Shown here: positions 45,261 to 64,000 of the stretch, in pieces | How the letters are laid out: each line of letters opens with the position of its first letter | Position numbering within the stretch: position 1 is the first letter of the stretch | Virus record (IMG/VR): IMGVR_UViG_3300021139_001731 | Coordinates: 1,580-65,579 of that record | Length of the DNA stretch: 64,000 nucleotides | From: a virus | Lineage: Duplodnaviria; Caudoviricetes | Reading direction: 5' to 3' (one strand) | Notes under the pieces: generated by a model | What the model saw: the letters and a program-made list of their open reading frames with translations, nothing else | The model's database searches: none | Told to the model about the DNA's origin: nothing | Program-made: the position numbers and the translations under genes

Positions 45261-45263
45261 AAT

Positions 45264-46745: not shown

Positions 46746-46754
46746 ATAAAACAT

Positions 46755-47000
46755 ATGGCAGACAAAAAAGAATTATCATTAGAAGAAAGAAATGTTATAG
46801 CTTTAGAAAAACAAGCAAAAGCAACTGAAAGGTTAGCATATGCAGCTGAAGATATTGCAGAGTTTTTCCACATCTCTGATATTGGTAAATTTACTGAAAA
46901 ATTAGAATGGTATTTATATGAATTTCACCAAATCTTAAAGACAAGACAAGTAGGTGGTTCATCATCTAGACCTGATAAAAATTACGAAAGAGAAGCATAA
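46755..47000 (+). CDS. Hypothetical 81-aa protein
   Basis: TAATG-coupled to the next gene. Confidence 0.6.
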   Translation: MADKKELSLEERNVIALEKQAKATERLAYAAEDIAEFFHISDIGKFTEKLEWYLYEFHQILKTRQVGGSSSRPDKNYEREA

Positions 47001-49851: not shown

Positions 49852-51242
49852 TGGCAAGTTATGAAGAGTTTGAAAAGGTAAGAGAAAACCTTAATTCAGT
49901 AGGTGTAGGGTTTTGTTTAGCAAAATGGATGCAAGTAACAATGCATTTACATATTGGACATAATCATTCATGTCACCACCCAATGACACACCAAATATCA
50001 ACAACTGAAATAGAAAGAGATCCATCGGCATTACATAATACTCGATTCAAAAAAGAAAAGAGAAAAGAAATGTTAGAAGGAAAAAGACCAACAGAATGTG
50101 ATTATTGTTGGGGTGTAGAAGATAGTTCAAATCAATTTAGTGATAGAACTTTTAAATCATCTGAACCATGGGCATATCCACACTTAGAAAAAATTAAAAA
50201 TACACATTGGAGAGAAAATATAAATCCTTCATATGTAGAAGTTTCATTCAGTAATGCTTGTAATTTTAAATGTTCATATTGTGCACCACCATTCTCAACA
50301 AAATGGATGGAAGAAATAGAACAATACGGTGGTTATCCAACAAGTGATAGTTTTAATGATTTGAAACATTTTACTAGTAGTGGTAGAATTCCCATTCCAC
50401 AAAATGAATACAATCCATATGTAGAAGCATTTTGGAAATGGTGGCCTGAGTTATATCAAGATTTATATACATTTAGAATTACGGGTGGTGAACCTATGAT
50501 GCATAAAGATACTATGAAAGTATTAGATTATATTATTGATTCACCAAATCCTAATAAAGAATTATCATTAAGTATTAATTCAAATTTAGGAGTTCCAGAT
50601 AGTTTATATAAAAAATTCAGAGAGAAATTTAAAATAATTTCGGATAGAGGATTAGTTAAAGAATTAATAATTTATACAAGTTGTGATGGATATGGTGCAC
50701 AGGCCGAGTATGGTAGAAATGGATTAGTTTATAATCAATTAATGGATAGAATTGATGATTTATGTGATTATATTCCTAGATTAACAATTGATATTATGAG
50801 CACTTATAACGTGTTATCGGTTCCATCTTATAAAAAATTAATAACGGATGTTTATTCATTAAAAGCAAAACATACAAACGCATTAAGATATTACAAACAA
50901 CCTCTTTTATTAGATAGTTCATACCTTCGTTATCCTAATCATCAATCTATTAAAATATTAGATAGAGAATGGGAAAAGGAAATATTTGAACAAGCACAAT
51001 TAGTTGAGTTTCATGAATTACTAAGAGAAGATGCTAATTGTTATGGGTTTAGTGATGTTGAAATTGTAAAAGTAAGAAGAATACATGATTATTTTATTTC
51101 AATTGATGATGAAGATAGAATGGCACACAGAAAAGATTTTTATAAATTTTTTAGTGAACATGATAAAAGAAGAGGAACTAATTTTGAGAAAACATTTCCT
51201 GAATTAACTGATTTTTATAACAAATGTAAAGAAATGAAATAA
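49851..51242 (+). CDS. Radical SAM protein with N-terminal twitch/SPASM-like Cys cluster
   Basis: CNFKCSYC, GGEP; N-terminal CLAKW...SCHH...CDYCW. Confidence 0.88.
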   Translation: MASYEEFEKVRENLNSVGVGFCLAKWMQVTMHLHIGHNHSCHHPMTHQISTTEIERDPSALHNTRFKKEKRKEMLEGKRPTECDYCWGVEDSSNQFSDRTFKSSEPWAYPHLEKIKNTHWRENINPSYVEVSFSNACNFKCSYCAPPFSTKWMEEIEQYGGYPTSDSFNDLKHFTSSGRIPIPQNEYNPYVEAFWKWWPELYQDLYTFRITGGEPMMHKDTMKVLDYIIDSPNPNKELSLSINSNLGVPDSLYKKFREKFKIISDRGLVKELIIYTSCDGYGAQAEYGRNGLVYNQLMDRIDDLCDYIPRLTIDIMSTYNVLSVPSYKKLITDVYSLKAKHTNALRYYKQPLLLDSSYLRYPNHQSIKILDREWEKEIFEQAQLVEFHELLREDANCYGFSDVEIVKVRRIHDYFISIDDEDRMAHRKDFYKFFSEHDKRRGTNFEKTFPELTDFYNKCKEMK

Positions 51243-51925
51243 TGGAATTTAAAGATACCTTTTGTGCAAGTTTATTTAGAGAAAGTAAACATAATACATC
51301 ATTAAAACCAAATTTATTAAGCGATATATTTCAACATTCAGTTAAAATAGAATGTAAATTTATAGCAGAAAATAATTATAAAAAACAATGGATTTTTTCT
51401 AAACAAGGAATAATTAATAGTGGATGTTTTATTGATGGTAATAAATTATCATTTACATTATCATCAACCACTAATGATATTGATTTTACAAATAGTCAAG
51501 TTCAAATAGATTATGAATTTGATTATAATAAAGAATATGAAATTCAATATAAAATCAATACAAATACAAATGAATTAATAGTATCAGTAAATGGTGAAAT
51601 TAGAAAAATGTATTATAGTGGAAATCTTAGTGATTATTCAAACGTACCATTATGGATAGGAACATCTAATCCATTTGTAGAGCCACAAAATTATTTTAAT
51701 GGAAATATATCTAAGTTTATAGTTTCAAATAATGATGGAATTATTACGGATTTAGATTTTACAAATGTTAATAGATTTAAAGTTTGGGATAAAAGTGGTA
51801 ATGGTAATTTTGCTTACATAGAAGAATTTGCAAATAAAACAATACAAATAAAATTAAATAGAATGATAGCTGGAAATTCATTAGAACCAGCAGATATTAC
51901 TAATATAAAACAAACTTTAATATAA
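51242..51925 (+). CDS. Stand-alone LamG/concanavalin-like domain protein
   Basis: LWIG...YFNGNIS...WDKSGNGN, matching the GT7 inserts. Confidence 0.6.
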   Translation: MEFKDTFCASLFRESKHNTSLKPNLLSDIFQHSVKIECKFIAENNYKKQWIFSKQGIINSGCFIDGNKLSFTLSSTTNDIDFTNSQVQIDYEFDYNKEYEIQYKINTNTNELIVSVNGEIRKMYYSGNLSDYSNVPLWIGTSNPFVEPQNYFNGNISKFIVSNNDGIITDLDFTNVNRFKVWDKSGNGNFAYIEEFANKTIQIKLNRMIAGNSLEPADITNIKQTLI

Positions 51926-52893
51926 TGAAAATATTAATAACAGGTGGAGCTGGATATTTAGGAACAGTTATCACTAAAACAATGTTAGAAGCAGGGCATA
52001 AAGTAACTGCAATAGATAATTTATCATTTAAACAATTATCACCTTTACATTATACATCAAACCCAAACTATAATTTTATTTATGGCGATGTAAGAAATGA
52101 AGCATTTTTAAGACATCAAGTTGGTATTCATGATGTTATAATTCCATTGGCAGCAATTGTAGGATTTCCCGCATGTAAAGCAGACCCTAAATTAGCGTGG
52201 GAAGTTAATTTTCATCAAATAGAAACTATATTAGATACAATTACTGATGACCAAATTATTTTATACCCAAATACAAATAGTGGTTATGGTATTGGTGAAG
52301 GACAAACGGAATGTACTGAAACTTCGCCACTAAACCCAATTTCAGTTTATGGTGAAAGTAAATGTGCAGCTGAAAAATTATTATTAGAATGTTCACAGTC
52401 AGTATGTTTTCGTTTGGCAACCGTATTCGGTACATCGGCAAGAATGAGAACGGATTTGTTAGTTAATGAATTTGTTTACAAAGCAATGACTGATAAATAC
52501 ATTACCGTTTTTGAAAAACATTTTAAGAGAAACTTTATTCATATTAATGATGTAGCAAGTGTATTTTTATGGGCATTGAACAATTACGATAAAATGAAAC
52601 ACAATGTTTACAATGTTGGATTGAGTGATGCAAATTTAAGTAAACAAGAATTATTAGAAAAAATACAAGAATATATTCCTGATTTTGCAATTAGTTATTC
52701 TGATTTTTATGAAGATCCGGATAAGAGAGATTATATTGTATCAAACGCAAAAATAGAAGCAACAGGTTGGAAACCAAAGTATAGTTTAGATGATGGTATT
52801 AAAGAATTGATGAAAACATATCAGGTCTTAATTCCAAAAATGACATCTGAATTTAGAAACGGATTCCCATTAGGTTACGCACAAACTTTTTAA
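51925..52893 (+). CDS. NAD-dependent epimerase/dehydratase (extended SDR)
   Basis: TGGAGYLG, YGESK, RNFIHINDV. Confidence 0.92.
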   Translation: MKILITGGAGYLGTVITKTMLEAGHKVTAIDNLSFKQLSPLHYTSNPNYNFIYGDVRNEAFLRHQVGIHDVIIPLAAIVGFPACKADPKLAWEVNFHQIETILDTITDDQIILYPNTNSGYGIGEGQTECTETSPLNPISVYGESKCAAEKLLLECSQSVCFRLATVFGTSARMRTDLLVNEFVYKAMTDKYITVFEKHFKRNFIHINDVASVFLWALNNYDKMKHNVYNVGLSDANLSKQELLEKIQEYIPDFAISYSDFYEDPDKRDYIVSNAKIEATGWKPKYSLDDGIKELMKTYQVLIPKMTSEFRNGFPLGYAQTF

Positions 52894-52894
52894 T

Positions 52895-54442
52895 ATGAGT
52901 AATTTTGTTTGGGGTAAAAAAGGTGATGAAACATTTCAAGAATATAGAGATAGAGCAATAAACTCAGTATCTCCATCTTTTTGTGGTGCAAAGTGGTATA
53001 ATGCAACCATATGGTTAAATATGGGACAAACTACATCATGCCATCATCCACCTGCACACAAAATACCACTAGAAGAATTGGATAAATCATACAAAGCACT
53101 TCATAATACGCACTACAAAAAGTTAGTTCGTAAAGAAATGTTAGAAGGTATAAGACCGGCAGAATGTGAGTATTGTTGGAAAGTAGAAGATTTAGGACCA
53201 GATAAAGTAAGTGATAGAGTTTACAAATCAGTTATATATTCGGATGAAGAATTGATTGAAGCAAAAGAACAATTTGGTTATACTAAGGATGTGGATTTGA
53301 AAACATTGGAAATTAGTTTTGATGCTAATTGTAACTTTGCATGTTCATATTGTAATGCATCATTTAGTACAACTTGGCAAACTGATATTAAAACAAATGG
53401 AGCTTATCAAAATTTAGTTACTGATGGTGCACCTGCATTTCACCACGCTGGAGATGATGCAATGATATATGGTAAGGATAACAAAGATAATCCATATGTT
53501 GCAGCATTTTGGAAATGGTGGGAAGGTGAGTTACAACATTCATTAAGAGAGTTAAGAGTTACTGGTGGCGAACCTACAATGAGTAAAGATTTTTGGAAGT
53601 TAATGGATTGGTGGAAAACCCATAATGAATGTAGTGTTAGATTTGCAGTTAATTCTAATTTAGGACAAAAGCAAGAGTTAGTAGATAGATTAATAGCAGC
53701 AACTCACAACTTTAAGGAAATCGATATTTATACGAGTGGTGAAAGTGTTGGTAAGCATGCAGAATATATTAGAGATGGTAAAGATTGGAATAGGTGGAAA
53801 ACAAATGTAGAAGCAATATTGAGAGATGGTAAAGTAAGAACAATGAATGTAATGATGACAATAAATGCATTATGTTTGTTTAGTATTACAGATTTCTTAG
53901 ATGAAATGAATATATTAAGAGAGAAGTATATAGATAAAACTCCACTCCTAATGACACTTAATATTTTAAGATTTCCTTCATTTCAATCAGCAACTACACT
54001 ACCTGAAGAAATACGATTAGAAAGAGCAGACCACCTTCAAAATTGGGTTGAAAACTTTATTAAGAGTAAACCTTCATATTACAACGATACCGATTTGTGG
54101 GGGCTTGCAAATCAAATTTATAGGTTATGTGAATATTTAAGAGAAGTAACACAAGGACATAGATTTGCATCGGATTTAAGAAGTAGACAGAGAGATTTCA
54201 AATCATTCTATCAACAATATGATATTCGTAGAGGTAAAAACTTTATTGAAACATTTCCAGAATTGGAAGATTGGTTTGAAATGGTTAGAGAAAGTAGAAC
54301 TGATTATGTTCAAGAAATCAAAAAGGTTAGGGGTGATGAAAATAATCGTTACAAATTAGATTATGAAAAAAGAGCATTAGAAGAAGGTATTGTAACAGAT
54401 GATTTAGAAAATGAAATTATAAAACATTTGAATAATGAGTAA
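52895..54442 (+). CDS. Radical SAM protein, paralogue of 49851-51242
   Basis: CNFACSYC, TGGEP; N-terminal CGAKW...SCHH...CEYCW. Confidence 0.88.
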   Translation: MSNFVWGKKGDETFQEYRDRAINSVSPSFCGAKWYNATIWLNMGQTTSCHHPPAHKIPLEELDKSYKALHNTHYKKLVRKEMLEGIRPAECEYCWKVEDLGPDKVSDRVYKSVIYSDEELIEAKEQFGYTKDVDLKTLEISFDANCNFACSYCNASFSTTWQTDIKTNGAYQNLVTDGAPAFHHAGDDAMIYGKDNKDNPYVAAFWKWWEGELQHSLRELRVTGGEPTMSKDFWKLMDWWKTHNECSVRFAVNSNLGQKQELVDRLIAATHNFKEIDIYTSGESVGKHAEYIRDGKDWNRWKTNVEAILRDGKVRTMNVMMTINALCLFSITDFLDEMNILREKYIDKTPLLMTLNILRFPSFQSATTLPEEIRLERADHLQNWVENFIKSKPSYYNDTDLWGLANQIYRLCEYLREVTQGHRFASDLRSRQRDFKSFYQQYDIRRGKNFIETFPELEDWFEMVRESRTDYVQEIKKVRGDENNRYKLDYEKRALEEGIVTDDLENEIIKHLNNE

Positions 54443-54971
54443 TAAATGGGATCAATTTAGAGTAACTCCATCAAAAAAATTTGGTATGGAAGTTCCAATC
54501 TTTACACCTTCAATTTATAGAGAGTATAGAGGTGAAATATTTACAACATTTCATAATCAGGAACATCCTGTAATGATAAGAATAGGTGAAGGACATGAAA
54601 TACATAGCAGATTCTCAAAATCATATAAGGGTGTTTTAAGAGGATTACACTATGACAATAAAACTTGGAAACTTGTACAAGCTTTAGTTGGAGATATTTA
54701 CCTAATTGTTTTGGATATGCGAAAAGAAAGTCCTACATTTGGAGAGTGGGAATCCTTTATGATAACTGAGAAAGATAGAAATCAAGTATTAATTCCACCA
54801 GGATTCGCAAATGGACATTACGCATTAACCGATTGTATTTTTCATTATAACTTATTTTATAAAGATGGTTATGTGGATGCAGATGAGCAAGGTGTGGTTA
54901 AATGGAATGATCCGGAATATCAAATGGAATGGCCAACAATAAATCCAATATTACAAAAAAGAGATAGATAA
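54435..54971 (+). CDS. rmlC: dTDP-4-dehydrorhamnose 3,5-epimerase-like (RmlC cupin)
   Basis: RGLH, KLV, DMRKESPTFG, IPPGFANG. Confidence 0.85.
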   Translation: MSNKWDQFRVTPSKKFGMEVPIFTPSIYREYRGEIFTTFHNQEHPVMIRIGEGHEIHSRFSKSYKGVLRGLHYDNKTWKLVQALVGDIYLIVLDMRKESPTFGEWESFMITEKDRNQVLIPPGFANGHYALTDCIFHYNLFYKDGYVDADEQGVVKWNDPEYQMEWPTINPILQKRDR

Positions 54972-55606
54972 TGATAGAAAATTTACAAAAATATCCAGTT
55001 GTATCAGAAGTTCGTTACACAAAGGAAGATTTAATTAACTACGAAAGAATGATTGCAGACCATTGGGAAGCAGGTAAGATTAAAGGACCGGTGCATTTAA
55101 GTGGTGGTAACGAAGAACAACTTATTGAAATTGGTAAAAGAATTAAAGAAACAGATTGGGTATTCTCAACCTGGCGTTCTCATTATCACGCACTAATTAA
55201 AGGTGTGTGTCCAGTTTGGTTAGAAGAAGAAATCTTAGCAGGTAGAAGTATTACTATTGTTAGTGAGGAACAAAGATTTTATGCAAGTGCAATTGTAGGA
55301 GCAATCATACCTATCGCAGTTGGTGTAGCTATGGCAAATAAAAGAGATGGTAAAGATGATAAGGTATTTTGTTTTGTAGGTGATATGGCATTTGAGACCG
55401 GTGGGTTTTATGAAATGCACAAATATGCAGAAAGATATGATTTACCAATTGTATTTGTAGTAGAAGATAATGGTGTATCAACTAACACTCCAACTGAAGC
55501 AACTTGGAATGGAGAAAAGAGAACAATACCATCAGAAAAAGTTATTTGGTATTCATATGAAAAAGTATGGCCTCATTATGGAACAGGTAAATGGGTAATA
55601 TTTTAA
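54971..55606 (+). CDS. TPP-dependent enzyme, E1 alpha-like subunit (short)
   Basis: HLSGGNEE, STWRSHYH, GDMA...E...EDNG TPP-binding motif; 211 aa. Confidence 0.85.
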   Translation: MIENLQKYPVVSEVRYTKEDLINYERMIADHWEAGKIKGPVHLSGGNEEQLIEIGKRIKETDWVFSTWRSHYHALIKGVCPVWLEEEILAGRSITIVSEEQRFYASAIVGAIIPIAVGVAMANKRDGKDDKVFCFVGDMAFETGGFYEMHKYAERYDLPIVFVVEDNGVSTNTPTEATWNGEKRTIPSEKVIWYSYEKVWPHYGTGKWVIF

Positions 55607-57096
55607 TGGAAAAAATAAATTTTATATACGAATACGAAAACGATGGGGTTATATTTCCAAATGGATTAACATACGATGCGTATCTTTCTACATTGGAACA
55701 AATACAACTTCATGGTGTTTCTACAAATGATTTTTTTACTAGAGGTTATACTGACCATCATATGGTTATAAATTTATCCTCAAAGTATCCAGAAAAAACA
55801 TTTAATGTATTTTATACAAGAACTATATATGAAAATGTATTACACTTCTTTACAAAAGTAAATGAAAGAAAATATACATTTGAAAAAAATGATAAACAAT
55901 TTGAAGTAAATTTAATAACACCAGATAAAATACAAAGTGGTGAAAGAAATTATTATATTGTAAATTTATTTGGTAACGAAGATTTTTTATTTCAAACTCC
56001 ATCTTTGACTGTAACTAATTTAGAAGAAAAACAATCTGGAAATAGACCACTTTTAAATTTAGATGAAAAAATTATAAATGCAATTAAATTAGGAGATTTA
56101 AAATTAGTAATTGCAACTTTCCATGAAGGTGGTGTACATTATCCATCTTTTTTTGAAAAATTATATTTTAGTTGTTTTAAATTAGGATTAAATCCGAATG
56201 ATATACATTATGTAAATGCGGATGCAAATATAGAATTACAACATGATTTATATTGTAGAAATAATATAATTCCTGGAAAAATAAATTGTCATTTTGTAGA
56301 TTGGTTATTTACAACGGCTTGTGGGGCATATTCAAATAATCCATATGATGAAGATGTATTAAATTATGAAGGTGAGAGAGAGAAAAACTTTTTAATATTT
56401 AATCGTTCAGTATTTAAAGATCATAGATTTTGGTATTTATCACAATTACAAAAAAATAAAGTATTAGATGATTGTTTATTTTCTATGATATTTCCATATG
56501 ATAGAGAAATACAATTTGGACAAGATATATACAGAGGATTTCCTGCATTTACAACGGAAGAAGAATTTAAAGAAGTATTACCATATATGCAAGAAGTGAA
56601 AGATATGGGTTCTATTAAAATTGATGATGTAGATACATTTGAAGATTCTACATTTTATGTTAATGGACGTAGAGTTCACTATGGTTGGATTGATTGGAGT
56701 AAACCTACATTTGATTTTACTTTCTTACGAACATATATGACATTACTTACTGAATCATCTTTTACAAGTTGTCAAGTTTCTGAAAAAGGAGTAAAGGCAT
56801 TAAGATACTATCATCCATTCATAGCGGTAGCAGGACCACATTATTTAAAAATGTTAAGAAGAAAAGGATTTAGAACATTTGGTAAATATTTTGATGAGAG
56901 TTATGATGATATTGAAGATCATGGAGAACGAATGAAAGCAATCGTTAAACTTACAACTGAATTAAACGATCCAAAAAAACTACATAAAATATTTATGGAT
57001 AGTAAAGAAGATGTAATTTACAATTCACATTTATGTAGAACATTTTCTGACTACCAAACAATACAAGAACTATTTTACAATATATTTGAAATATGA
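55606..57096 (+). CDS. Putative GT-B glycosyltransferase with GT10-like C-terminal motif
   Basis: LLTESSF...VSEKGVKAL..YHPFI..AG; start placed at the TAATG overlap (55606) rather than 55591. Confidence 0.4.
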   Translation: MEKINFIYEYENDGVIFPNGLTYDAYLSTLEQIQLHGVSTNDFFTRGYTDHHMVINLSSKYPEKTFNVFYTRTIYENVLHFFTKVNERKYTFEKNDKQFEVNLITPDKIQSGERNYYIVNLFGNEDFLFQTPSLTVTNLEEKQSGNRPLLNLDEKIINAIKLGDLKLVIATFHEGGVHYPSFFEKLYFSCFKLGLNPNDIHYVNADANIELQHDLYCRNNIIPGKINCHFVDWLFTTACGAYSNNPYDEDVLNYEGEREKNFLIFNRSVFKDHRFWYLSQLQKNKVLDDCLFSMIFPYDREIQFGQDIYRGFPAFTTEEEFKEVLPYMQEVKDMGSIKIDDVDTFEDSTFYVNGRRVHYGWIDWSKPTFDFTFLRTYMTLLTESSFTSCQVSEKGVKALRYYHPFIAVAGPHYLKMLRRKGFRTFGKYFDESYDDIEDHGERMKAIVKLTTELNDPKKLHKIFMDSKEDVIYNSHLCRTFSDYQTIQELFYNIFEI

Positions 57097-58385
57097 AATT
57101 AATTAATTTTTATATTGAAAATTGGGCAAATGATGGAATTAATGATGGTTACACTCCATTACCAAATGGTGTCTTTGATTTTAAATTTAACCAATCATTT
57201 GCCGCAAATAATTTTACAGGAGTTATAGATGAAATTAGAGATAGTGAATTACAAAGTAGTTTAAATGAAATATTTTTAAGAGCAAAATATGGTGAAAAAA
57301 GATATGCAGTTGCATTTGAACATAAAGATTTAAAAATAGTTTTAACCGATAAACCAGTATTAGAAGGTGCAATTGAGAATTATTATTTAGTTACACCCAA
57401 AGTTCATATGGAAACATTAGAAGAATATTTACCATATTACGATACTATATTAGAAAAGGGAATTAAAATTTTATTTGTAAGTTTTCATGAAAGTGGTGTA
57501 TATCCTAAATTTTATAAATGGATTAATAATAACAAATACCATAATCAAATTTATACTATAACACCTTGTTATAATATAAAAAAATTTACAAAAGGACATC
57601 ACATATATTTTCCATTTTTAACATATGATTTAGATCATAACTTTAAACAAAACGATAGTTTATTTTCAGTATGTGATAGGGAAATGTATGATAATACTGC
57701 AAAAAGAAAAATGATTCTATCTTTTAATCGAAATGTAAAAAGAGAACATAGATTTTATTTTTATAATTTTTGTAGAATGGAAAATTTAATAGATGATAAT
57801 TACATTTCATTTTTAGAATTTCCTGATGAGCATGTTGAGTTTTATAATACAATGCAAATTCCAATATTAAATGAATATAAAAAATTCTTTTTAGAAAATG
57901 CACCACATTATGAGGTATCGGTAGATGTTAGAACGGATGATCCTGGATATGTAGAAAACCTTTTACATAATTGGAACAATGATAGTTGGTTATATGCAGA
58001 GAGTTTATTTTCAATTGTACTAGAAACAAAATACTTTGAAAGAGATATTATGATTTCAGAAAAAGTATTAAGACCTATTGCAAATTGTCATCCATTTGTA
58101 GTCATTGGTCCAAGATATACAACAAAGATTTTAGAAGATATGGGATTTTATATTCCACCTTTTATAGATTATAATGAGTTAGATAAAGAAGATTTTCCTT
58201 GGTTACGATTGGTAAAAACATTTGAACAAATAAAAAAATTAGTAAAATATTGTGAAGAACACAATGAACTTCCTCCGTTTGATATGGATAAAATAGAAGC
58301 AAATCAAAAATTACTTTTAGGGTTTGATAGAAGTGAAGTTTTATATGAATACTATTCAAAATTAATAAAAACAAAAATAATATAA
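57093..58385 (+). CDS. Paralogue of 55606-57096, putative glycosyltransferase
   Basis: FNRNVK..HR and SIVLETK...ISEKVLRPI..CHPFVVIG. Confidence 0.4.
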   Translation: MKLINFYIENWANDGINDGYTPLPNGVFDFKFNQSFAANNFTGVIDEIRDSELQSSLNEIFLRAKYGEKRYAVAFEHKDLKIVLTDKPVLEGAIENYYLVTPKVHMETLEEYLPYYDTILEKGIKILFVSFHESGVYPKFYKWINNNKYHNQIYTITPCYNIKKFTKGHHIYFPFLTYDLDHNFKQNDSLFSVCDREMYDNTAKRKMILSFNRNVKREHRFYFYNFCRMENLIDDNYISFLEFPDEHVEFYNTMQIPILNEYKKFFLENAPHYEVSVDVRTDDPGYVENLLHNWNNDSWLYAESLFSIVLETKYFERDIMISEKVLRPIANCHPFVVIGPRYTTKILEDMGFYIPPFIDYNELDKEDFPWLRLVKTFEQIKKLVKYCEEHNELPPFDMDKIEANQKLLLGFDRSEVLYEYYSKLIKTKII

Positions 58386-59323
58386 TGAAAAAAGTTTTAA
58401 TAACAGGTTGTAGTGGTTTAGTAGGAATACATTTAGTAAAAAAATGTTTAGTAGCGGGATATGAAGTAATTGGTGTAGATTTAAGACAATCTGAACATTT
58501 ACCAACATCAGAAAGATTTACTTTTTATCAAATGGATTTAACTAAAACAGAAAACATAGAACAATTATTTTTCTATGAAACTCCTGATGTAGTATTTAAT
58601 ACATTTGGTGTTAAAGGTTCTCCATTAAGAGCAAAAGAAAAGCCAGTAGATTTCTTATATCCATCCTTTAAAATTAATACTGAAATTATTAATCAATGTG
58701 CAAAGAATAATACTTGGTTAATATTTGTTAGTTCAGTTGGAGTATATGCACCGGCAGAAACATTTATAGAAGATAGTGTATGGAAAACATTACCATCAGA
58801 AGCAGATTGGTTTCCAAGTTGGAGTAAGAGAATGGGTGAAGTATTGTTAGAAGCATATAAAGTTCAGTTCAATTACACTAATTGGGCAATTATAAGACCG
58901 GCAAATATATTTGGTGAATACGATAACTTTGATGGAACTGGAACCGTTATTGCAACTCAATGTAAAAAAGTATTTGAAGCAGATAGTGAAATAGAAGCAT
59001 GGGGTGATGGTACACCTATTAGAGATTTTGTATATGCGGGTGATGTTGCAAATGCAATTTTATCGTTATATGAAAGACAAATTCATACAACTATTAATTT
59101 TGGAGCTGGTGAAGAAATTACAATCAAATCAATGATTGAACAATTAATAAAAATTAGTGGAAAAGATATATATATTAAATGGGATACAACCAAACCAAAT
59201 GGTGACCTTCGTAGACAAATGGACACTACTAAACAAAAAGAAATTGGATTGTTACCAATATTAGGTTTTAATGAAGCTCTAAAATTAACATATGAAAGTT
59301 ATATCTCAAAAAGAATTGGATAA
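58385..59323 (+). CDS. Extended SDR, GDP-fucose synthase-like
   Basis: TGCSGLVG, RPANIFG, WGDGTPIRDFVY. Confidence 0.85.
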   Translation: MKKVLITGCSGLVGIHLVKKCLVAGYEVIGVDLRQSEHLPTSERFTFYQMDLTKTENIEQLFFYETPDVVFNTFGVKGSPLRAKEKPVDFLYPSFKINTEIINQCAKNNTWLIFVSSVGVYAPAETFIEDSVWKTLPSEADWFPSWSKRMGEVLLEAYKVQFNYTNWAIIRPANIFGEYDNFDGTGTVIATQCKKVFEADSEIEAWGDGTPIRDFVYAGDVANAILSLYERQIHTTINFGAGEEITIKSMIEQLIKISGKDIYIKWDTTKPNGDLRRQMDTTKQKEIGLLPILGFNEALKLTYESYISKRIG

Positions 59324-59693
59324 AGAATTTGAGTATTTAGAAAAACAAAAAGCAATACTCAAAGAAGAAAGAGAAAAAATAATGTTGGAAAGAAGTAAAT
59401 TGTATTATCAATGGAAAGAAATACAAGAAACAGATGAATCTATTCAAAAAGACCAAGAAAGAGTTAATAAATTAAGAGGTGATTTACAATTTGAATTAAA
59501 AAAAGTAAATGAAGAATATACTATTAAGATAGATGCTGAAATCGCAGAAATACGAAAAGAAAAAAACAATGAATTAGAACTAGAACTGCAACAAGATAGA
59601 TTACGATTAGATAAAATTAGAAGAGATTTACATGAGTTAATTGCAATAGAAGAAGCAACAGTAATAACATTTAAACAAAAAAATATAATATAA
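59292..59693 (+). CDS. Charged coiled-coil hypothetical protein
   Basis: E/K/L heptads throughout; TAATG-coupled to the next gene. Confidence 0.55.
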   Translation: MKVISQKELDKEFEYLEKQKAILKEEREKIMLERSKLYYQWKEIQETDESIQKDQERVNKLRGDLQFELKKVNEEYTIKIDAEIAEIRKEKNNELELELQQDRLRLDKIRRDLHELIAIEEATVITFKQKNII

Positions 59694-60430
59694 TGTTAGA
59701 TATACAAAAAAATGAATATTCTACTGGAACAATATGGGATATGGTAGATGAAATAAATTCCGATTTTCTTAAATCTTTATACGATAGTGTTTTAGTTAAA
59801 TTCAAAGATAACACAGATTGTGTAACTTATTTGTATTCATCATACAATGATCATCCAGATTATAAACAATCTGCATATTATACAAAAGATGAATTTATTA
59901 ATATAAAACAATATGTAGAAGAAAAAAATGATGAAAGATATGAACCACATCAGCAAAATAAAATGTGTCATACTCATTTATCTGAATTTGAAGAAAAGAT
60001 TGGTTTAGATAAAAATTATTTTAACAATGTAGTATATAAAGTATTAGATGATTTAGCAGTTAAAATATTAAAAAAAGAATATAATATAGAAGTTAACACA
60101 GAAGATTTTATACATAAAGCACAATTAACTTGGTATAGTGATGGTGATTTTATTAAAATGCATGATGATGGACCGACTGATACTAGAATATGTGCTTTGT
60201 TAATTTATTTAACTCCGGAAGAATATTATAAAGCAGGTAGTGGTGGTGAATTGGTATTGAAAAATAGAAAAAATACAATTGATATAGCTTATCCAATATT
60301 AGGAAACTATGCAGTTATTGATTTTACAAGAAACTCACCGGTACATTCAGTACATAAAGTGAGTGGAAATTTCAATAGATTTGCATATTTAAATTTTATA
60401 GAATTAAAAGATAAAAATGCAAGGCCTTAA
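59693..60430 (+). CDS. 2OG-Fe(II) oxygenase
   Basis: HDD, LIYL...GGE, HSV, R. Confidence 0.85.
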   Translation: MLDIQKNEYSTGTIWDMVDEINSDFLKSLYDSVLVKFKDNTDCVTYLYSSYNDHPDYKQSAYYTKDEFINIKQYVEEKNDERYEPHQQNKMCHTHLSEFEEKIGLDKNYFNNVVYKVLDDLAVKILKKEYNIEVNTEDFIHKAQLTWYSDGDFIKMHDDGPTDTRICALLIYLTPEEYYKAGSGGELVLKNRKNTIDIAYPILGNYAVIDFTRNSPVHSVHKVSGNFNRFAYLNFIELKDKNARP

Positions 60431-61067
60431 TAAATCATATTATTGTGGAAATGGGAATGAATTTTTTGGAAATGAATATTCTAAAAGATTAGAAGAAGCA
60501 TATAATGGAATATTAAATTATAAAGATTTTGATTATCAAATTATATATTCTTTAAATGCAGTACACAATGTAAGTATTGTACCATCAAAACCATTTAATG
60601 AACAAATTTTTTATAAAAATGAATTTATTTCAAAGAAAGAAAATTTAGCACAAGTTTGGTTTGAAAAGAATAATCTAATAACTGAATTTCATTCTATATC
60701 TGATTATTGTTATTTAAAATTATTAGAATTATATCCTGAACAAAGTAAAAGATTTGGTGGTCCATCTTTTTCTTTAACAATATATGATAAAGGTTGTTTT
60801 ATAGAAAATCATAAAGATGGTGATGATGATGATAAAAGTAGATTATGTGTAGTTTTATTGTATTTAAATAAAGATTGGAAACCGGGAATGGGTGGAGAAC
60901 TAATAATTACAGATGAACATGGAAATAAATTGGAAATTACGCCAGAATTTGGTAACTTTGCAATACTAGATTTTCAAAATTATAATTTATACCATGAAGT
61001 TAAACCAATTACGGATGATAACTTTCATAGAAAAACATTAATAAGTTTTATACATTTAGCAAAATAA
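60417..61067 (+). CDS. 2OG-Fe(II) oxygenase
   Basis: HKD, LYLNKDW..GMGGE, HEV, RK. Confidence 0.85.
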   Translation: MQGLNKSYYCGNGNEFFGNEYSKRLEEAYNGILNYKDFDYQIIYSLNAVHNVSIVPSKPFNEQIFYKNEFISKKENLAQVWFEKNNLITEFHSISDYCYLKLLELYPEQSKRFGGPSFSLTIYDKGCFIENHKDGDDDDKSRLCVVLLYLNKDWKPGMGGELIITDEHGNKLEITPEFGNFAILDFQNYNLYHEVKPITDDNFHRKTLISFIHLAK

Positions 61068-61072
61068 AAAAT

Positions 61073-62050
61073 ATGATAAATAAAGATTCAAAAATCCTGA
61101 TAACAGGTGGTTCTGGATTAGTCGGACAGAACTTAACAAACCGATTACACAAAGAAGGTTACACAAACATTAGAGTTAATTTACACAAAAGAGGTGTAAG
61201 AAATCCAATTGAAGGAGTGGAGTATGTTCACTTTGATTTGAAAACATACGAAGGATGTTTAGATGCAACTAAAGGAGTAGAAGTAGTTTACCATTGTGCA
61301 GCAAGTACATCAAACGCAGTAGACACAGTAGTTGACCCATTAGCACATGTTACACCAAACGTAGCAATGAACAATTTCTTAATTGATGCCAGTTGGAGAA
61401 ATAAGGTTCAACATTACATCTTCTTATCATCTAATACTGTTTATCCACCAAAAGGAGATAAGCCGGTAGTAGAGACAGATTTCCTATTTGATGAACCATA
61501 TCCGGTATACTTTCCAGTAGGTTGGATGAAAAGATATGCAGAAGTTCAATGTGAATTATACGCAAAGTATTTACCAACAAAAATGAAGTGCACGGTGATT
61601 AGACCTGCAAATTTATTTGGACCACATGATAAGTACGATTTCAATAAATGTCATGTTACTCCTGCAACAATTAGAAAAGTAGCAGACCAAATGAACCCTA
61701 TTCCAGTGTGGGGTGATGGTAGTGAATTACGAGATTTATTATATATTGAAGATTTTGTAGAAGCATTACAAATAGTAATGGAAAAAGAAAAAGAAGATTA
61801 TCAAGTTTATAATATTGGTTCTAACAGAGTTTATTCAGTATTAGAAGTATTAGAAGCAATGAAAAGAATTGCAAACTATAATGCACCTACTGAATTTATT
61901 AAAGGTAAACCATCGATGATTCCAACTCGTAAAATTGATTCATTTAAAATTTATGATAAATTAGGATGGCAAGCAACTACATCATTAGAAGATGGATTAA
62001 AAAATGCATATGAATGGTATTTAGAACATAAAGATGAATTCCAAAATTAA
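61073..62050 (+). CDS. Extended SDR, GDP-fucose synthase-like
   Basis: TGGSGLVG, RPANLFGPHD, HVTPA, WGDGSELRDLLY. Confidence 0.88.
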   Translation: MINKDSKILITGGSGLVGQNLTNRLHKEGYTNIRVNLHKRGVRNPIEGVEYVHFDLKTYEGCLDATKGVEVVYHCAASTSNAVDTVVDPLAHVTPNVAMNNFLIDASWRNKVQHYIFLSSNTVYPPKGDKPVVETDFLFDEPYPVYFPVGWMKRYAEVQCELYAKYLPTKMKCTVIRPANLFGPHDKYDFNKCHVTPATIRKVADQMNPIPVWGDGSELRDLLYIEDFVEALQIVMEKEKEDYQVYNIGSNRVYSVLEVLEAMKRIANYNAPTEFIKGKPSMIPTRKIDSFKIYDKLGWQATTSLEDGLKNAYEWYLEHKDEFQN

Positions 62051-62916
62051 TGAAAGGTATTTTATTTCCAGGCGACTCATATACATGGGGTGAAGGTCTT
62101 CATTTATATTCGGAGTTACCAGATACAAAATTTGATGAAATGGCGTTTGATGGAACAAATTATACTCCTTCTCATATTAAATTTATAGAAGCAAATAGAT
62201 TTGCAAGAAAAGTTGCAAATCACTTCAATACGTTTGAATTAGTTAGATTTAGTAATGGTGGTAACAATAATGATATTTTTGAATTTATTGATCAGTTACC
62301 AAAACAATATTTAAAAAACCATATGCCAGCTACTGGACGTATACAAGTTCCTAGATCGGTAGAATATAGATTAGAAGATTTTGATTATATTGTTTTACAA
62401 TTAACTGATATGTTTAGAAATGAAATTAAGTTTGAATATAAAGACATTATCGGATATTGTAACATTAGGTCAGATGAAAGTATAAAAAGGTCTGGTTTTA
62501 TTTTCTATTTAAAAGATAATTTTAATGGTAATATAAATTATTTCATTGAATATTATTTAAAAACTACAATTTATAATATAATAGAAAAATTTAAATTATA
62601 CGAATCAAAAGGAATTAAAAGATGTTTTATTCATACATGGCATAATGACCCAATTCCGTTCTTTAACAATAATGAATTCTTAAAAGAAAGGTGGATTACA
62701 TATGATGATGGAAATAATATATTTAATTCAATTATGGATTTACAAAGTTCAGAAAAAAGAAGGTCTGGTATGAGTATAAATGATGATTATTTTTTTATAC
62801 AAAAAGGAATAATTGTTAATAATGGGCATACATCATTAGAAGCACATAATATACAAGCAAAAGCAATAATTAAAAAAATAGAAGAATATGAGCAGTCCAC
62901 AATACACTCCGTATAA
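62050..62916 (+). CDS. SGNH-like protein
   Basis: GDSYTWGEG, ANRFARKVANHF, terminal GH. Confidence 0.6.
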   Translation: MKGILFPGDSYTWGEGLHLYSELPDTKFDEMAFDGTNYTPSHIKFIEANRFARKVANHFNTFELVRFSNGGNNNDIFEFIDQLPKQYLKNHMPATGRIQVPRSVEYRLEDFDYIVLQLTDMFRNEIKFEYKDIIGYCNIRSDESIKRSGFIFYLKDNFNGNINYFIEYYLKTTIYNIIEKFKLYESKGIKRCFIHTWHNDPIPFFNNNEFLKERWITYDDGNNIFNSIMDLQSSEKRRSGMSINDDYFFIQKGIIVNNGHTSLEAHNIQAKAIIKKIEEYEQSTIHSV

Positions 62917-63433
62917 AGATGCATTAACAACGGCAATGACTAATTTAGCAGAGTTAGAAGATTCTGTTTTTATTGGACAACAAATTGTATATCAAGGAAA
63001 TCCTATGAGCACAACATTGGGTGGTGTATCAAAGGATAAAATGATTGAAGTTCCTGTAATGGAAGAATCACAAATGGGAATGAGTTTAGGTATGGCAATG
63101 GCAGGTAAAAGAGTTATTACATTTTATCCAAGATGGGATTTTATTATATGTGCAACAAATCAATTAGTAAATCACGTAGATAAGATTGGATTAATGAGTG
63201 GTGGCAAATGGAAACCAAACTTAATTATCAGATTGGGTAAGGGTAGTGATAAACCATTAGATCCAGGTCATCAACACAAAGGAAATTACTTTGATGAATT
63301 TAAAAGTATGTGTCCTAATATAGAATTTCACGATTTAAAAAGACCTGAAGATATTGAATTAGCTTACAAATATGTAACTAAAGAAGGTGGTATTCATATT
63401 ATGGTAGAATATCCGGAGTTATATTATGTATAG
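62888..63433 (+). CDS. TPP-dependent enzyme, E1 beta / transketolase pyrimidine-binding subunit lacking the C-terminal domain
   Basis: VPVMEESQMGMSLGMAMAG, DFI..ATNQLVN, DPGHQH; 181 aa. Confidence 0.85.
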   Translation: MSSPQYTPYKDALTTAMTNLAELEDSVFIGQQIVYQGNPMSTTLGGVSKDKMIEVPVMEESQMGMSLGMAMAGKRVITFYPRWDFIICATNQLVNHVDKIGLMSGGKWKPNLIIRLGKGSDKPLDPGHQHKGNYFDEFKSMCPNIEFHDLKRPEDIELAYKYVTKEGGIHIMVEYPELYYV

Positions 63434-64000
63434 TGGAAAAGGAATTATATTTGTAGGATGTTCTTTTACTTGGGGTGGTGGTTTAGAATATTACCCACCA
63501 TTTAAGGATATTCCAGATCCATATGCATTTCAATATGATGAACAAAAAATTACATTTGCAATAATGAATTTTATTAAAGCAAATAGATTTAGTAGATTGG
63601 TTGCAAACCATTTTGGAATGTGGGAAGCAAATAGATTAAATTGTGGTGGTTCTGATGATGGTTCAATTGACCAAATAAAAATGATGTTAGAATTAGGTAA
63701 TCATAGTCAAAACATTTCCAAGCAATTTGAAAATATTAAAATGCAAAGATATTCAGCAGATGAAATTGAATATGTTGTATTCCAATTAACAGATCCATTT
63801 AGAAATTATCATATTAATATAAATGGTGAAAATTTAGTAATTAATATTGCACAAATAAGACAAAGAAATACTAATGAATTTAATAAAAATGATATTAAAA
63901 TAGATAACAATAAAATTACATTACCATTAAATAATTTTGATATTCAACAAAATGATAAATTAGAATTATGTGATATAGATAATGAAGGAATTACAAATAA
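63426..64000 (+). CDS. SGNH-like protein, paralogue of 62050-62916 (runs off the window edge)
   Basis: Translated by hand: MYSGKGIIFVGCSFTWGGGLEY...KANRFSRLVANHF...VVFQLTD; no stop before 64000. Confidence 0.7.
   Translation, partial: MYSGKGIIFVGCSFTWGGGLEYYPPFKDIPDPYAFQYDEQKITFAIMNFIKANRFSRLVANHFGMWEANRLNCGGSDDGSIDQIKMMLELGNHSQNISKQFENIKMQRYSADEIEYVVFQLTDPFRNYHININGENLVINIAQIRQRNTNEFNKNDIKIDNNKITLPLNNFDIQQNDKLELCDIDNEGITN

What the first reader, a model, noticed from the sequence alone, without database searches (positions are those of the whole stretch)
54435..63433. Minimal split TPP enzyme plus RmlC and SDRs: candidate branched-chain sugar pathway
An E1-alpha-like gene (211 aa) and an E1-beta-like gene (181 aa, no C-terminal domain) lie ~7.3 kb apart within sugar-nucleotide genes. 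No E2/E3 is present in the window. Established: TPP enzymes add pyruvate-derived two-carbon branches to NDP-4-keto-6-deoxysugars (YerE for yersiniose; E1-like AviB1/B2 in avilamycin biosynthesis). Inference: the phage makes a C-branched sugar rather than boosting pyruvate metabolism.
Basis: partly seen in the sequence, partly recalled or inferred. Interest (0 to 1): 0.7.

Follow-up and report, generated by a model that had tools for sequence, protein, structure and literature searches.

The report
Minimal thiamine enzyme in phage heptose operon
A large uncultured phage carries a stripped-down two-part thiamine enzyme whose genes bracket a cassette for remodelling an activated keto-sugar (GDP-heptose type); it most likely adds a short carbon branch to that sugar, and I found no paper reporting a test of this widespread enzyme family.

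Summary
An E1-alpha-like gene (54971-55606, 211 aa, ThDP-diphosphate domain only) and an E1-beta-like gene (62888-63433, 181 aa, pyrimidine-binding domain only) lie 7,281 bp apart in one operon. No E2 or lipoyl protein is present in the contig or in two complete related phages.

The two are partners. They co-occur in 47/51 viral and 65/75 cellular loci, are adjacent in 61/65 cellular pairs, and are fused in cyanophages S-SM2 and P-TIM68. Only phages split them with a 0-8 kb variable cassette.

The sugar context needs correcting: it is GDP-heptose-type, not dTDP-rhamnose-type. SDR1 matches PDB 6VO6 (Cj1427 C4-dehydrogenase, by my recollection). "RmlC" matches GDP-4-keto-heptose 3,5-epimerases. 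SDR2 and SDR3 are fucose-synthase-like C4-reductases. In 16 viral loci there is a 4-keto generator plus epimerase plus alpha/beta but no reductase.

Best reading (about 0.6): a minimal E1/DXS-like carboligase that adds a 2-oxoacid-derived (probably pyruvate) unit to the C4 ketone. Its closest known relatives are the full-length alphaKADH2 enzymes (AviB1/B2, Pau11/12, KbDH).

The chemistry is untested. This scan has flagged the same family many times on other DNA.

The parts
51925..52893 (+). SDR1: Cj1427-like GDP-(heptose) C4-dehydrogenase, the 4-keto generator
   Evidence: 375 bits to PDB 6VO6/6VO8 over residues 2-303. Conserved directly upstream of RmlC-alpha in 39/51 viral loci. That 6VO6 is Cj1427 is my own recollection; the paper is not held.
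54435..54971 (+). RmlC-family cupin: GDP-4-keto-heptose 3- or 3,5-epimerase type (Cj1430-like)
   Evidence: PF00908 118 bits. Best PDB matches are C. jejuni GDP-D-glycero-4-keto-D-lyxo-heptose epimerases 7M14, 8DCO, 8DCL and 8DB5 at about 130 bits, against about 90 bits for true dTDP RmlC. TIGR01221 scores 113.5, below its 155.75 cut-off.
54971..55606 (+). Alpha subunit: E1-alpha-like ThDP diphosphate-binding (PP) domain only, 211 aa
   Evidence: PF00676 70 bits; TIGR03182 96 bits against a cut-off of 394. Aligns to human E1-alpha residues 53-209 only. G137-D138-M139...E165-D166-N167, H42, R69, H71, H73 and H202 are invariant or nearly so in 111 homologues. Its start shares one base with the RmlC stop.
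55591..57096 (+). GT-B-type glycosyltransferase (unk501), paralogue of unk430
   Evidence: Falls in the same blastp cluster as unk430. The family has up to 5 paralogues per locus and is fused to beta in P0137 and P0139.
57093..58385 (+). GT-B-fold glycosyltransferase (unk430)
   Evidence: AF2 model pLDDT 87.6. Foldseek top hits are SdgB, GT4 enzymes, AviGT4 and a fucosyltransferase, prob 0.9-1.0 but TM only about 0.39. No Pfam hit.
58385..59323 (+). SDR2: GDP-fucose-synthase-like C4-reductase
   Evidence: NF047922 133 bits, below cut-off. PDB hits are GDP-L-fucose synthases, including the C. jejuni heptose reductases 7ANH and 7M13.
59292..59693 (+). unk133, unknown function, variable cassette gene
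   Evidence: No Pfam or NCBIfam hit. 54-67% identical in related loci.
59693..60430 (+). 2OG-Fe(II) oxygenase a
   Evidence: PF13640 36.9 bits.
60417..61067 (+). 2OG-Fe(II) oxygenase b
   Evidence: PF13640 47.5 bits.
61073..62050 (+). SDR3: GDP-fucose-synthase-like C4-reductase
   Evidence: NF047922 144 bits. E. coli GDP-fucose synthetase 111 bits. 80-96% identical across loci.
62050..62916 (+). unk288: SGNH/GDSL-like protein (by motif only), probable glycan O-acyl esterase or transferase
   Evidence: Alignment A4 has invariant G8, S10, G71 and H260 in the block pattern GxS...G...NGG...DxH. The Atlas lead is weak. A profile search of PDB found nothing.
62888..63433 (+). Beta subunit: E1-beta-like pyrimidine-binding (PYR) domain only, 181 aa
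   Evidence: PF02779 28 bits; NF006667 48 bits. Aligns to E1-beta residues about 5-170. The activating Glu59, R82 and Q129-H130 are invariant in 102 homologues. The family is about 177 aa long in 277 representative clusters.
63426..63998 (+). unk191: paralogue of unk288, cut by the contig end
   Evidence: Same cluster as unk288. The contig ends at window position 64000.
49851..51242 (+). Twitch-domain radical SAM enzyme 1
   Evidence: NF033640 327 bits.
52895..54442 (+). Twitch-domain radical SAM enzyme 2
   Evidence: NF033640 306 bits.
43634..49851 (+). Upstream part of the same operon: methyltransferase, GT2-like protein and three GT7-LamG glycosyltransferases
   Evidence: Pfam hits.

Best explanation
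The 211-aa alpha and 181-aa beta proteins assemble into a minimal E1/DXS-like thiamine-diphosphate enzyme (inferred). Alpha supplies the diphosphate/Mg site and beta supplies the pyrimidine site and the activating glutamate. The parts that let a true E1 talk to E2-lipoamide are absent.

The enzyme works inside a GDP-sugar pathway of the Campylobacter heptose type. SDR1 (Cj1427-like) oxidises C4 of a host-supplied GDP-heptose (possibly GDP-mannose) to a ketone, and the RmlC-like epimerase scrambles C3/C5. The ThDP enzyme then decarboxylates a 2-oxo acid (most likely pyruvate) and adds the resulting acyl-anion equivalent to the C4 carbonyl. That would give a tertiary-alcohol, 4-C-acetyl-type branched sugar.

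The Fcl-like reductases SDR2 and SDR3 make unbranched epimeric GDP-sugars in parallel. The 2OG oxygenases, SGNH-like proteins and radical SAM enzymes tailor the products, and the GT-B, GT2 and GT7 transferases assemble a glycan.

Shown here: the domain content, the conserved catalytic residues, the partnership of alpha and beta, and the pathway context. Inferred: assembly into one enzyme, the C-C bond formation, the donor, the acceptor and the position of the branch.
For: (1) Partnership. Alpha and beta co-occur in 47/51 viral and 65/75 cellular loci. They are adjacent in 61/65 cellular pairs (median -11 bp). They are fused in S-SM2, P-TIM68 and several metagenomic and DPANN proteins.

(2) Functional site. 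The GDM...EDN motif, the activating Glu59 and the beta His (Q129-H130) are invariant across 111 and 102 distinct sequences. The natural fusion P0128 models at pLDDT 93.8 and superposes on DXS, a pyruvate-decarboxylating carboligase, at TM 0.72-0.75 over both domains.

(3) Not a PDH. The beta C-terminal domain is absent and alpha aligns to E1-alpha only up to about residue 209. No E2 or lipoyl protein is present in the contig, and no E2 in complete relatives.

(4) Context. SDR1 scores 375 bits to 6VO6, and the epimerase's best matches are GDP-4-keto-heptose epimerases. 47/51 viral loci carry a 4-keto generator, either a C4-dehydrogenase (39) or a GMD-like 4,6-dehydratase (8), never both. Cellular loci add the GmhA, HddA, GmhB and HddC genes and a ColD-like 3-dehydratase.

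(5) Pathway logic. 16 viral loci (types C4DH-RmlC-A-B and RmlC-A-GMD-B) have no recognisable C4-reductase, so alpha/beta sits where the canonical pathway (PMC10680097) has its reductase.

(6) Precedent. E1-type alpha/beta enzymes install pyruvate-derived C2 branches on keto-sugars. KbDH-alpha/beta does pyruvate-ketone coupling in vitro, and AviB1/B2 act together with the non-haem-iron enzyme AviO2 (PMC12247030, PMC4425429, PMC4753412). Two 2OG oxygenases lie between alpha and beta here. Aldo-keto reductases of the same Pfam family as Pau7 recur beside A/B in cellular loci.
Against: No biochemical data exist for any member of the family. Both proteins are much shorter than every characterised sugar-branching E1-type enzyme (Pau11 is 325 aa and Pau12 is 345 aa). 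Many loci, including this window, also carry C4-reductases, so the keto group has another possible fate. The frequent association with GmhA, HddA and HddC in cells would equally fit a role upstream, in making a ketose phosphate. No 4-C-branched heptose came up in the papers I searched. The phage encodes no nucleotidyltransferase, so the nucleotide sugar is assumed to come from the host. The identification of 6VO6 as Cj1427 rests on my memory.
Confidence: 0.6

Rival explanations
1. A miniature transketolase or DXS-like enzyme acts upstream on sugar phosphates. It would supply sedoheptulose-7-phosphate or another ketose phosphate that the GmhA, HddA, GmhB and HddC enzymes turn into the GDP-heptose precursor.
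For: The cyanophage homologues are annotated 'transketolase central region' and sit beside phosphoheptose isomerase, a kinase and nucleotidyltransferases. Cellular loci carry SIS, GHMP, HAD and NTP-transferase genes in 19-33 of 75 loci. The fusion model superposes on DXS.
Against: By sequence the pair is E1-type, not transketolase-type: PF00676 scores 70 bits with no PF00456 hit, and the dxs model scores 24 bits against a cut-off of 466. The phage modules keep the C4-dehydrogenase and epimerase but have no GmhA or HddC anywhere, even in complete genomes. SAR11 loci carry a separate genuine split transketolase next to A/B. Hosts already have a transketolase.
Confidence: 0.1
2. The same branching role but different chemistry or timing. 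The enzyme might transfer a hydroxyacetyl or longer unit (donor hydroxypyruvate, 2-oxoglutarate or a hydroxylated 2-oxo acid). Or it might act on a keto-sugar already attached to the glycan, as proposed for avilamycin and paulomycin.
For: Split transketolases are proposed to add hydroxyacetyl branches in miharamycin, and YerE-like enzymes use C4-C8 donors (PMC12247030, PMC9306805). Beta is fused to the GT-B family in P0137 and P0139, and alpha to a GT2 in P0125. Branch attachment after glycosyl transfer is proposed in PMC4425429.
Against: The review describes characterised E1-type branching enzymes as specialised for C2 units from pyruvate (PMC12247030). The fusions could be gene-calling artefacts from overlapping ORFs. 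The tight coupling to the nucleotide-sugar C4-dehydrogenase and epimerase argues for a nucleotide-sugar acceptor.
Confidence: 0.15
3. A plain 2-oxoacid decarboxylase that forms no C-C bond on the sugar. It might adjust the 2-oxoacid pool that the Cj1427-like dehydrogenase and the 2OG oxygenases depend on, or make an aldehyde for another tailoring step.
For: Cj1427 needs 2-oxoglutarate to recycle its tightly bound NADH (PMC10680097). Two 2OG oxygenases lie in the cassette.
Against: The minimal four-gene modules have no 2OG oxygenase and no consumer for an aldehyde. Decarboxylating 2-oxoglutarate would remove the co-substrate rather than supply it. The family also travels with GMD-like dehydratases, which need no 2-oxoacid.
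Confidence: 0.07
4. An auxiliary metabolic gene pair that boosts host pyruvate dehydrogenase by joining host E2/E3, or decayed remnants of such genes.
For: Automatic annotations call the homologues 'pyruvate dehydrogenase E1 alpha'. The best named sequence matches are PDH E1 subunits.
Against: The beta C-terminal domain and the alpha C-terminal third are absent. E2-docking by that beta domain is my own knowledge. Scores are far below the equivalog cut-offs (96 against 394). No E2 is present. The length and catalytic residues are strictly conserved in more than 5,000 clusters, which excludes decay. The pair always sits in glycan loci.
Confidence: 0.02

Closest known systems
alphaKADH2-type (E1 alpha/beta) sugar C-branching ThDP enzymes: AviB1/AviB2 (avilamycin), Pau11/Pau12 (paulomycin), AlmDI/DII-type (aldgamycin), KbDH-alpha/beta (kibdelomycin)
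   Same: Two subunits homologous to E1-alpha (PP) and E1-beta (PYR). No E2/E3 partners. Encoded inside keto-sugar pathways. The proposed reaction is decarboxylation of pyruvate and addition to a sugar ketone, shown in vitro for KbDH on ketones including sugar analogues (PMC12247030). Accompanied by non-haem-iron oxygenases and ketoreductases (PMC4425429, PMC4753412).
   Different: The known ones are full length (about 325 and 345 aa). They come from actinomycete antibiotic clusters and act on dTDP-type deoxysugars or glycosides. Here alpha is 211 aa and beta 181 aa, with no beta C-domain and no alpha C-terminal third, and the motif is GDM instead of GDG. The context is GDP-heptose, and the hosts are phages, SAR11, CPR bacteria and DPANN archaea. 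I could not obtain AviB/Pau/KbDH sequences, so no tree places the family relative to them.
Campylobacter jejuni GDP-heptose modification pathway (Cj1427 C4-dehydrogenase, Cj1430 C3/C5-epimerase, Cj1428 C4-reductase)
   Same: SDR1, the RmlC-like protein and SDR2/SDR3 match these three enzyme types, in the same logical order (PMC10680097).
   Different: I found no ThDP enzyme reported in that pathway ('thiamine' does not occur in PMC10680097). The phage lacks the precursor genes gmhA, hddA, gmhB and hddC.
[quoted passage not shown]
   Same: The fused homologue has the same PP-PYR arrangement (TM 0.72-0.75). DXS also couples pyruvate decarboxylation to carboligation onto a sugar carbonyl without a lipoyl acceptor.
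   Different: DXS is a single chain of about 620 aa with a third domain, and its acceptor is glyceraldehyde-3-phosphate. Sequence similarity is marginal (24-27 bits).
YerE / ErwE (ALS-like ThDP flavoenzymes of yersiniose-type LPS sugars)
   Same: The same proposed outcome: an acyl branch at C4 of a nucleotide-activated 4-keto sugar in surface glycans.
   Different: They belong to an unrelated ThDP superfamily (single chain, PYR-TH3-PP order, about 560-600 aa) and use a CDP-3,6-dideoxy acceptor. An ALS-like enzyme of that general type sits as a separate gene next to A/B in SAR11 loci.

Membership tests
alphaKADH2 sugar-branching ThDP enzymes (AviB1/B2 type) | Two subunits homologous to E1-alpha (PP domain) and E1-beta (PYR domain) | tested here: met
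   PF00676 70 bits and TIGR03182 96 bits for alpha; PF02779 28 bits and NF006667 48 bits for beta. PDB E1 alignments.
alphaKADH2 sugar-branching ThDP enzymes (AviB1/B2 type) | Intact ThDP/Mg motif (GDG-X-N) and activating glutamate | tested here: met
   G137-D138-M139...N167 (GDM in 109/111) and beta Glu59 (102/102). The third motif position differs from the canonical G.
alphaKADH2 sugar-branching ThDP enzymes (AviB1/B2 type) | Full-length E1 architecture (alpha about 325 aa; beta about 345 aa with C-terminal domain) | tested here: not met
   211 aa and 181 aa, with no Transketolase_C, against Pau11 at 325 aa and Pau12 at 345 aa (PMC4425429).
alphaKADH2 sugar-branching ThDP enzymes (AviB1/B2 type) | Encoded with enzymes that make a nucleotide keto-sugar; no E2/E3 | tested here: met
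   (47/51 viral loci with a 4-keto generator).
alphaKADH2 sugar-branching ThDP enzymes (AviB1/B2 type) | Catalyses 2-oxoacid decarboxylation and addition to a sugar ketone | not testable with these tools
   Needs an enzyme assay.
alphaKADH2 sugar-branching ThDP enzymes (AviB1/B2 type) | Groups phylogenetically with AviB/Pau/KbDH rather than with PDH or acetoin E1 | not tested
Pyruvate / 2-oxoacid dehydrogenase E1 (PDH complex component) | Beta C-terminal domain that docks E2, and the alpha C-terminal region | tested here: not met
   Beta ends after the PYR domain. Alpha aligns only to human E1-alpha 53-209 of 365. The docking role of the domain is my own knowledge.
Pyruvate / 2-oxoacid dehydrogenase E1 (PDH complex component) | Partner E2 (lipoyl acyltransferase) encoded | tested here: not met
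   PF00198 and PF00364 are absent from the contig; PF00198 is absent from four relatives, two of them complete.
Pyruvate / 2-oxoacid dehydrogenase E1 (PDH complex component) | Reaches the NCBIfam equivalog cut-off | tested here: not met
   96 bits against 394 for alpha; 48 bits against 321 for beta.
Transketolase (including split forms) | Transketolase_N (PF00456) and Transketolase_C domains | tested here: not met
   Neither hit is reported. A genuine split transketolase in SAR11 loci scores 121 bits on PF00456.
DXS | Single three-domain chain reaching the dxs model cut-off | tested here: not met
   TIGR00204 scores 23.7 bits against 466. There is only fold-level likeness of the fused homologue.
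C. jejuni-type GDP-heptose modification cassette | Cj1427-like C4-dehydrogenase | tested here: met
   375 bits to PDB 6VO6/6VO8. The entry's identity as Cj1427 is from my own knowledge.
C. jejuni-type GDP-heptose modification cassette | RmlC-fold GDP-4-keto-heptose C3 or C3/C5-epimerase | tested here: met
   The top eight PDB hits are C. jejuni entries, five of them deposited under GDP-heptose names (7M14, 8DCO, 8DCL, 8DB5, 8DAK), at 124-132 bits.
C. jejuni-type GDP-heptose modification cassette | GDP-fucose-synthase-like C4-reductase | tested here: met
   SDR2 and SDR3, at family level only; substrate not determined.
C. jejuni-type GDP-heptose modification cassette | [quoted passage not shown] | tested here: not met
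   SIS_2 and NTP_transferase are absent from the contig and from four related records, two of them complete; GHMP kinase and HAD phosphatase were not searched there. All four gene types are present in cellular and cyanophage loci. Heptose against mannose as the substrate is therefore unresolved for this phage.
YerE-like ThDP flavoenzymes | Single chain with TPP_enzyme_N, TPP_enzyme_M and TPP_enzyme_C | tested here: not met
   There is only a weak TPP_enzyme_C hit on alpha (35 bits), and no N or M domains.

The most novel reading that the evidence does not exclude
The minimal alpha/beta pair makes a C4-acyl-branched heptose (a nine-carbon-level sugar) of a kind I did not find in the papers searched, displayed on the phage particle or on the infected cell. 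In phages, the two subunit genes serve as conserved anchors around a recombination hot-spot. Glycosyltransferase, reductase and oxygenase cassettes are swapped in and out there to diversify the glycan.
Probability: 0.4. Interest if true: 0.75.

Novelty: new variant of a known kind. Interest (0 to 1): 0.6.

Why it matters
If the reading is right, this is the smallest known form of a sugar-branching thiamine enzyme: just a PP and a PYR domain. It is very abundant, with more than 5,000 protein clusters of the alpha subunit alone, in ocean phages, SAR11, candidate-phyla bacteria and DPANN archaea.

Automatic annotation calls it 'pyruvate dehydrogenase E1'. That would wrongly suggest that the phage manipulates central carbon metabolism.

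The enzyme would extend the well-studied Campylobacter GDP-heptose pathway with a C-C bond-forming branch, and it predicts unknown branched sugars on very abundant marine microbes and viruses. It would also offer a compact carboligase that accepts ketones, which biocatalysis groups are actively looking for (PMC12247030). The phage-specific splitting of the gene pair by variable cassettes is a concrete example of how viral glycan loci diversify.

Tried and rejected
- A single-sequence scan of cellular genomes found nothing. A profile scan then found more than 130 loci.
- The protein atlas gave only virus-only unnamed clusters for unk430 and unk288.
- A profile of the unk288 family found nothing in PDB, so its SGNH assignment rests on motifs alone.
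- The Cj1427 structure paper (PMC7509852) and the Krug et al. survey are not held.
- I could not obtain AviB1, Pau11 or KbDH sequences, so I built no tree against the characterised enzymes.
- I considered and rejected phosphonopyruvate or sulfopyruvate decarboxylase. ComDE-like small split enzymes belong, by my own knowledge, to the TPP_enzyme_N/C superfamily, whereas this pair is of the E1/Transket_pyr type, and no PEP mutase was among the recurrent neighbour families I annotated.
- I rejected a PDH auxiliary gene and gene decay (see the rival explanations).
- I rejected a pelagimyophage of the HTVC008M type: the closest cultured phages by baseplate wedge are Microcystis phage Mel-JY01 and Flavobacterium phage immuto at 39-42%. 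The host remains unknown.

Full report
**Observation.** The region is one tightly packed + strand operon with overlapping stops and starts. It lies in a low-GC (about 28%) contig of an uncultured T4-like myovirus with baseplate, endolysin, a tail fibre with an S74 chaperone, primase and SbcCD. The contig is 65,579 bp, ends at the window end, and CheckV rates it 28% complete. The closest cultured phages by baseplate wedge are Microcystis phage Mel-JY01 and Flavobacterium phage immuto at 39-42%, so the host is unknown.

The RmlC-family cupin is at 54435-54971. The E1-alpha-like protein is at 54971-55606 (211 aa; PF00676 70 bits). The E1-beta-like protein is at 62888-63433 (181 aa; PF02779, no C-terminal domain). 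SDRs lie at 51925, 58385 and 61073. The alpha-beta gap is 7,281 bp. No E2 or lipoyl domain exists in the contig, and no E2 in four related phage records, two of them complete at 237 and 336 kb.

**The two proteins are real, functional-looking partners.** Alpha aligns to human E1-alpha residues 53-209 only. Beta aligns to the PYR domain of E1-beta. Across 111 distinct alpha and 102 distinct beta homologues from viruses and cells, the cofactor and catalytic positions are invariant or nearly so. In alpha these are H42, N47-E48, R69, H71, H73, G137-D138-M139, E165-D166-N167 and H202. In beta they are the activating E59, R82 and Q129-H130. The motif is GDM rather than GDG in 109 of 111 sequences.

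The 210-aa alpha form has more than 5,000 clusters in the large protein database. The 177-aa beta form has 277 representative clusters at E below 1e-10, and full-length E1-beta appears only at about 31% identity.

In 51 IMG/VR loci and 75 cellular loci with an alpha ORF (of 80 fetched), beta lies within 9 kb of alpha in 47 and 65 respectively. The four viral exceptions end before the expected beta position. In cells the genes are adjacent in 61 of 65 pairs (median -11 bp). In phages only 6 of 47 are adjacent, 11 lie 0.1-2 kb apart and 30 lie more than 5 kb apart.

Natural alpha-beta fusions of 380-408 aa exist in cyanophages S-SM2 and P-TIM68, in DPANN archaea and in metagenomes. One fusion (P0128) models at pLDDT 93.8 and pTM 0.91. 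As a single chain it superposes best on DXS (TM 0.72-0.75 over both domains). Single-chain targets are favoured in that comparison, so it shows a compatible PP-PYR architecture and not closer kinship than to E1.

**The sugar context is GDP-heptose-type, not dTDP-rhamnose-type.** SDR1 (51925-52893) scores 375 bits to PDB 6VO6/6VO8. [quoted passage not shown] The paper is not held, so this identification is my own knowledge.

The 'RmlC' has as its best solved relatives the C. jejuni GDP-D-glycero-4-keto-D-lyxo-heptose 3- and 3,5-epimerases (about 130 bits), well above true dTDP RmlC (about 90 bits). SDR2 and SDR3 belong to the GDP-fucose-synthase family, which is the family of the C. jejuni C4-reductases. 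The canonical order dehydrogenase, epimerase, reductase is described in PMC10680097.

In one set of phage loci the only gene between alpha and beta is a GMD-like GDP-sugar 4,6-dehydratase (PF16363, 253 bits), with a ManC-like gene upstream. Cellular loci add GmhA-like SIS, GHMP kinase, HAD phosphatase, NTP-transferase, a ColD-like 3-dehydratase (190 bits), UDP-Glc/GDP-Man dehydrogenase, a flippase and GT2/GT4 genes. The cyanophage clusters are annotated the same way.

This phage and its complete relatives encode no NTP-transferase or SIS isomerase. The GDP-sugar must therefore come from the host, and heptose against mannose remains open.

**Pathway logic.** 47 of 51 viral loci carry a 4-keto generator. 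It is either the C4-dehydrogenase (39) or the 4,6-dehydratase (8), never both. 44 carry the epimerase. 16 have no recognisable C4-reductase. These are the minimal modules C4DH-RmlC-A-B (for example L016) and RmlC-A-GMD-B (for example L021), whose other neighbours are unrelated. In those modules the ThDP pair stands where the canonical pathway has its reductase. It is then the only candidate to consume the C4 ketone. Adding a carbanion to that ketone would give a tertiary alcohol that needs no reductase.

This is the chemistry assigned to the E1-type 'alphaKADH2' enzymes of antibiotic pathways. AviB1/B2 and Pau11/12 rest on genetics, and KbDH-alpha/beta couples pyruvate to ketones, including sugar analogues, in vitro (PMC4425429, PMC4753412, PMC12247030). 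YerE-type enzymes of LPS do the same kind of reaction (PMC9306805). There are two further parallels. AviB1/B2 act with the non-haem-iron enzyme AviO2, and two 2OG oxygenases lie between alpha and beta here. Pau7, which reduces the acetyl branch, is an aldo-keto reductase, and aldo-keto reductases recur beside A/B in cellular loci.

**The cassette in this window.** Between alpha and beta lie eight genes:
- Two paralogous proteins of a virus-only family. For unk430 the model (pLDDT 87.6) has a GT-B glycosyltransferase fold, with top hits SdgB, GT4 enzymes, AviGT4 and a fucosyltransferase (probability 0.9-1.0 but TM only about 0.39). The family has up to five paralogues per locus, and beta is fused to it in two metagenomic proteins.
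- The two reductases, SDR2 and SDR3.
- An unknown 133-aa protein.
- Two 2OG oxygenases.
- An SGNH-like protein, assigned by motif only. Its paralogue follows beta.

Upstream lie two twitch-domain radical SAM enzymes flanking SDR1, three GT7-LamG proteins, a GT2-like protein and a methyltransferase.

Compared with the closest loci, the core enzymes are 87-96% identical (alpha, beta, SDR2, SDR3). The oxygenases, unk133 and the SGNH-like genes are only 49-62% identical. The cassette is therefore mosaic.

**Verdict and limits.** I put about 0.9 on alpha/beta being one functional ThDP enzyme of a GDP-keto-sugar pathway. I put about 0.6 on it forming a C-branch at the keto carbon, and less than that on pyruvate being the donor.

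The rivals are: an upstream transketolase or DXS-like role (0.1), other donors or action after glycosyl transfer (0.15), a plain decarboxylase (0.07), and a PDH auxiliary gene (0.02).

The pair fails one defining feature of the characterised alphaKADH2 enzymes, the full-length architecture. I therefore call it a new minimal variant of that kind rather than a member.

No paper in the searchable library describes it. The pelagimyophage and cyanophage papers mention LPS-type islands but not this enzyme (PMC7029224, PMC3037559).

This scan has flagged the same family on many other genomes, and follow-up agents there reached the same reading. Those are unchecked AI notes and add no independent evidence. 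I reached the reading from my own tests before I saw them. Their 3-dehydratase lead I tested and confirmed for cellular loci.

Noticed in passing
window 54971-63433; loci L003-L053: In phages the alpha and beta genes bracket a variable cassette of 0 to about 8 kb, whereas in cells they are adjacent (61/65). The conserved flanks (SDR1-RmlC-alpha on the left, beta on the right) may act as anchors for cassette exchange.
   Followed up: partly
window 49851-51242 and 52895-54442: Two paralogous twitch-domain radical SAM proteins (NF033640, 327 and 306 bits) flank the Cj1427-like dehydrogenase. Their substrate is unknown. The same pair is conserved in the closest loci.
   Followed up: no
L068, L101, L104 (Pelagibacteraceae genomes): SAR11 glycan loci hold three different ThDP enzymes side by side: the minimal A/B pair, a genuine split transketolase (PF00456 and PF02779) and a 559-aa ALS-like enzyme. 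The ALS-like enzyme's best PDB match is 8RPH, an unnamed 'thiamine pyrophosphate-binding protein' (233 bits).
   Followed up: partly
proteins P0123, P0124, P0125, P0137, P0139, P0251; L115:4807-6843: Metagenomic fusions join alpha to an SDR, a B12-radical SAM domain or a GT2. They join beta to the GT-B family or to radical SAM enzymes. Some may be gene-calling artefacts.
   Followed up: partly
protein P0130 (550 aa): An alpha homologue matches the family only over its first ~120 residues (to about alpha position 121) and also carries Hint/intein-type domains (PF07591, PF14890), suggesting an intein-like insertion in the ThDP enzyme.
   Followed up: no
alpha residue 139 (window about 55385-55387): The ThDP motif reads GDM instead of the canonical GDG in 109 of 111 split-form family members. 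Four fused forms (S-SM2, P-TIM68, P0132, P0133) keep GDG, while others (P0126, P0128, P0129) have GDM.
   Followed up: partly
window 45264-49851: Three tandem GT7 (beta-1,4-galactosyltransferase-like) proteins each carry a LamG/concanavalin-like domain.
   Followed up: no
window 13663-15360; L016:14665-16365; L028:14108-15787: A Nol-type carbamoyltransferase is conserved in this phage group. In the minimal-module phages it lies within 5 kb of the A/B pair.
   Followed up: no
L054, L055 (Saccharibacteria and Flavobacteriales MAG contigs): The two 'cellular' contigs closest to the phage alpha (58-62%) carry the virus-only GT-B family. They are probably phage fragments binned into MAGs.
   Followed up: no
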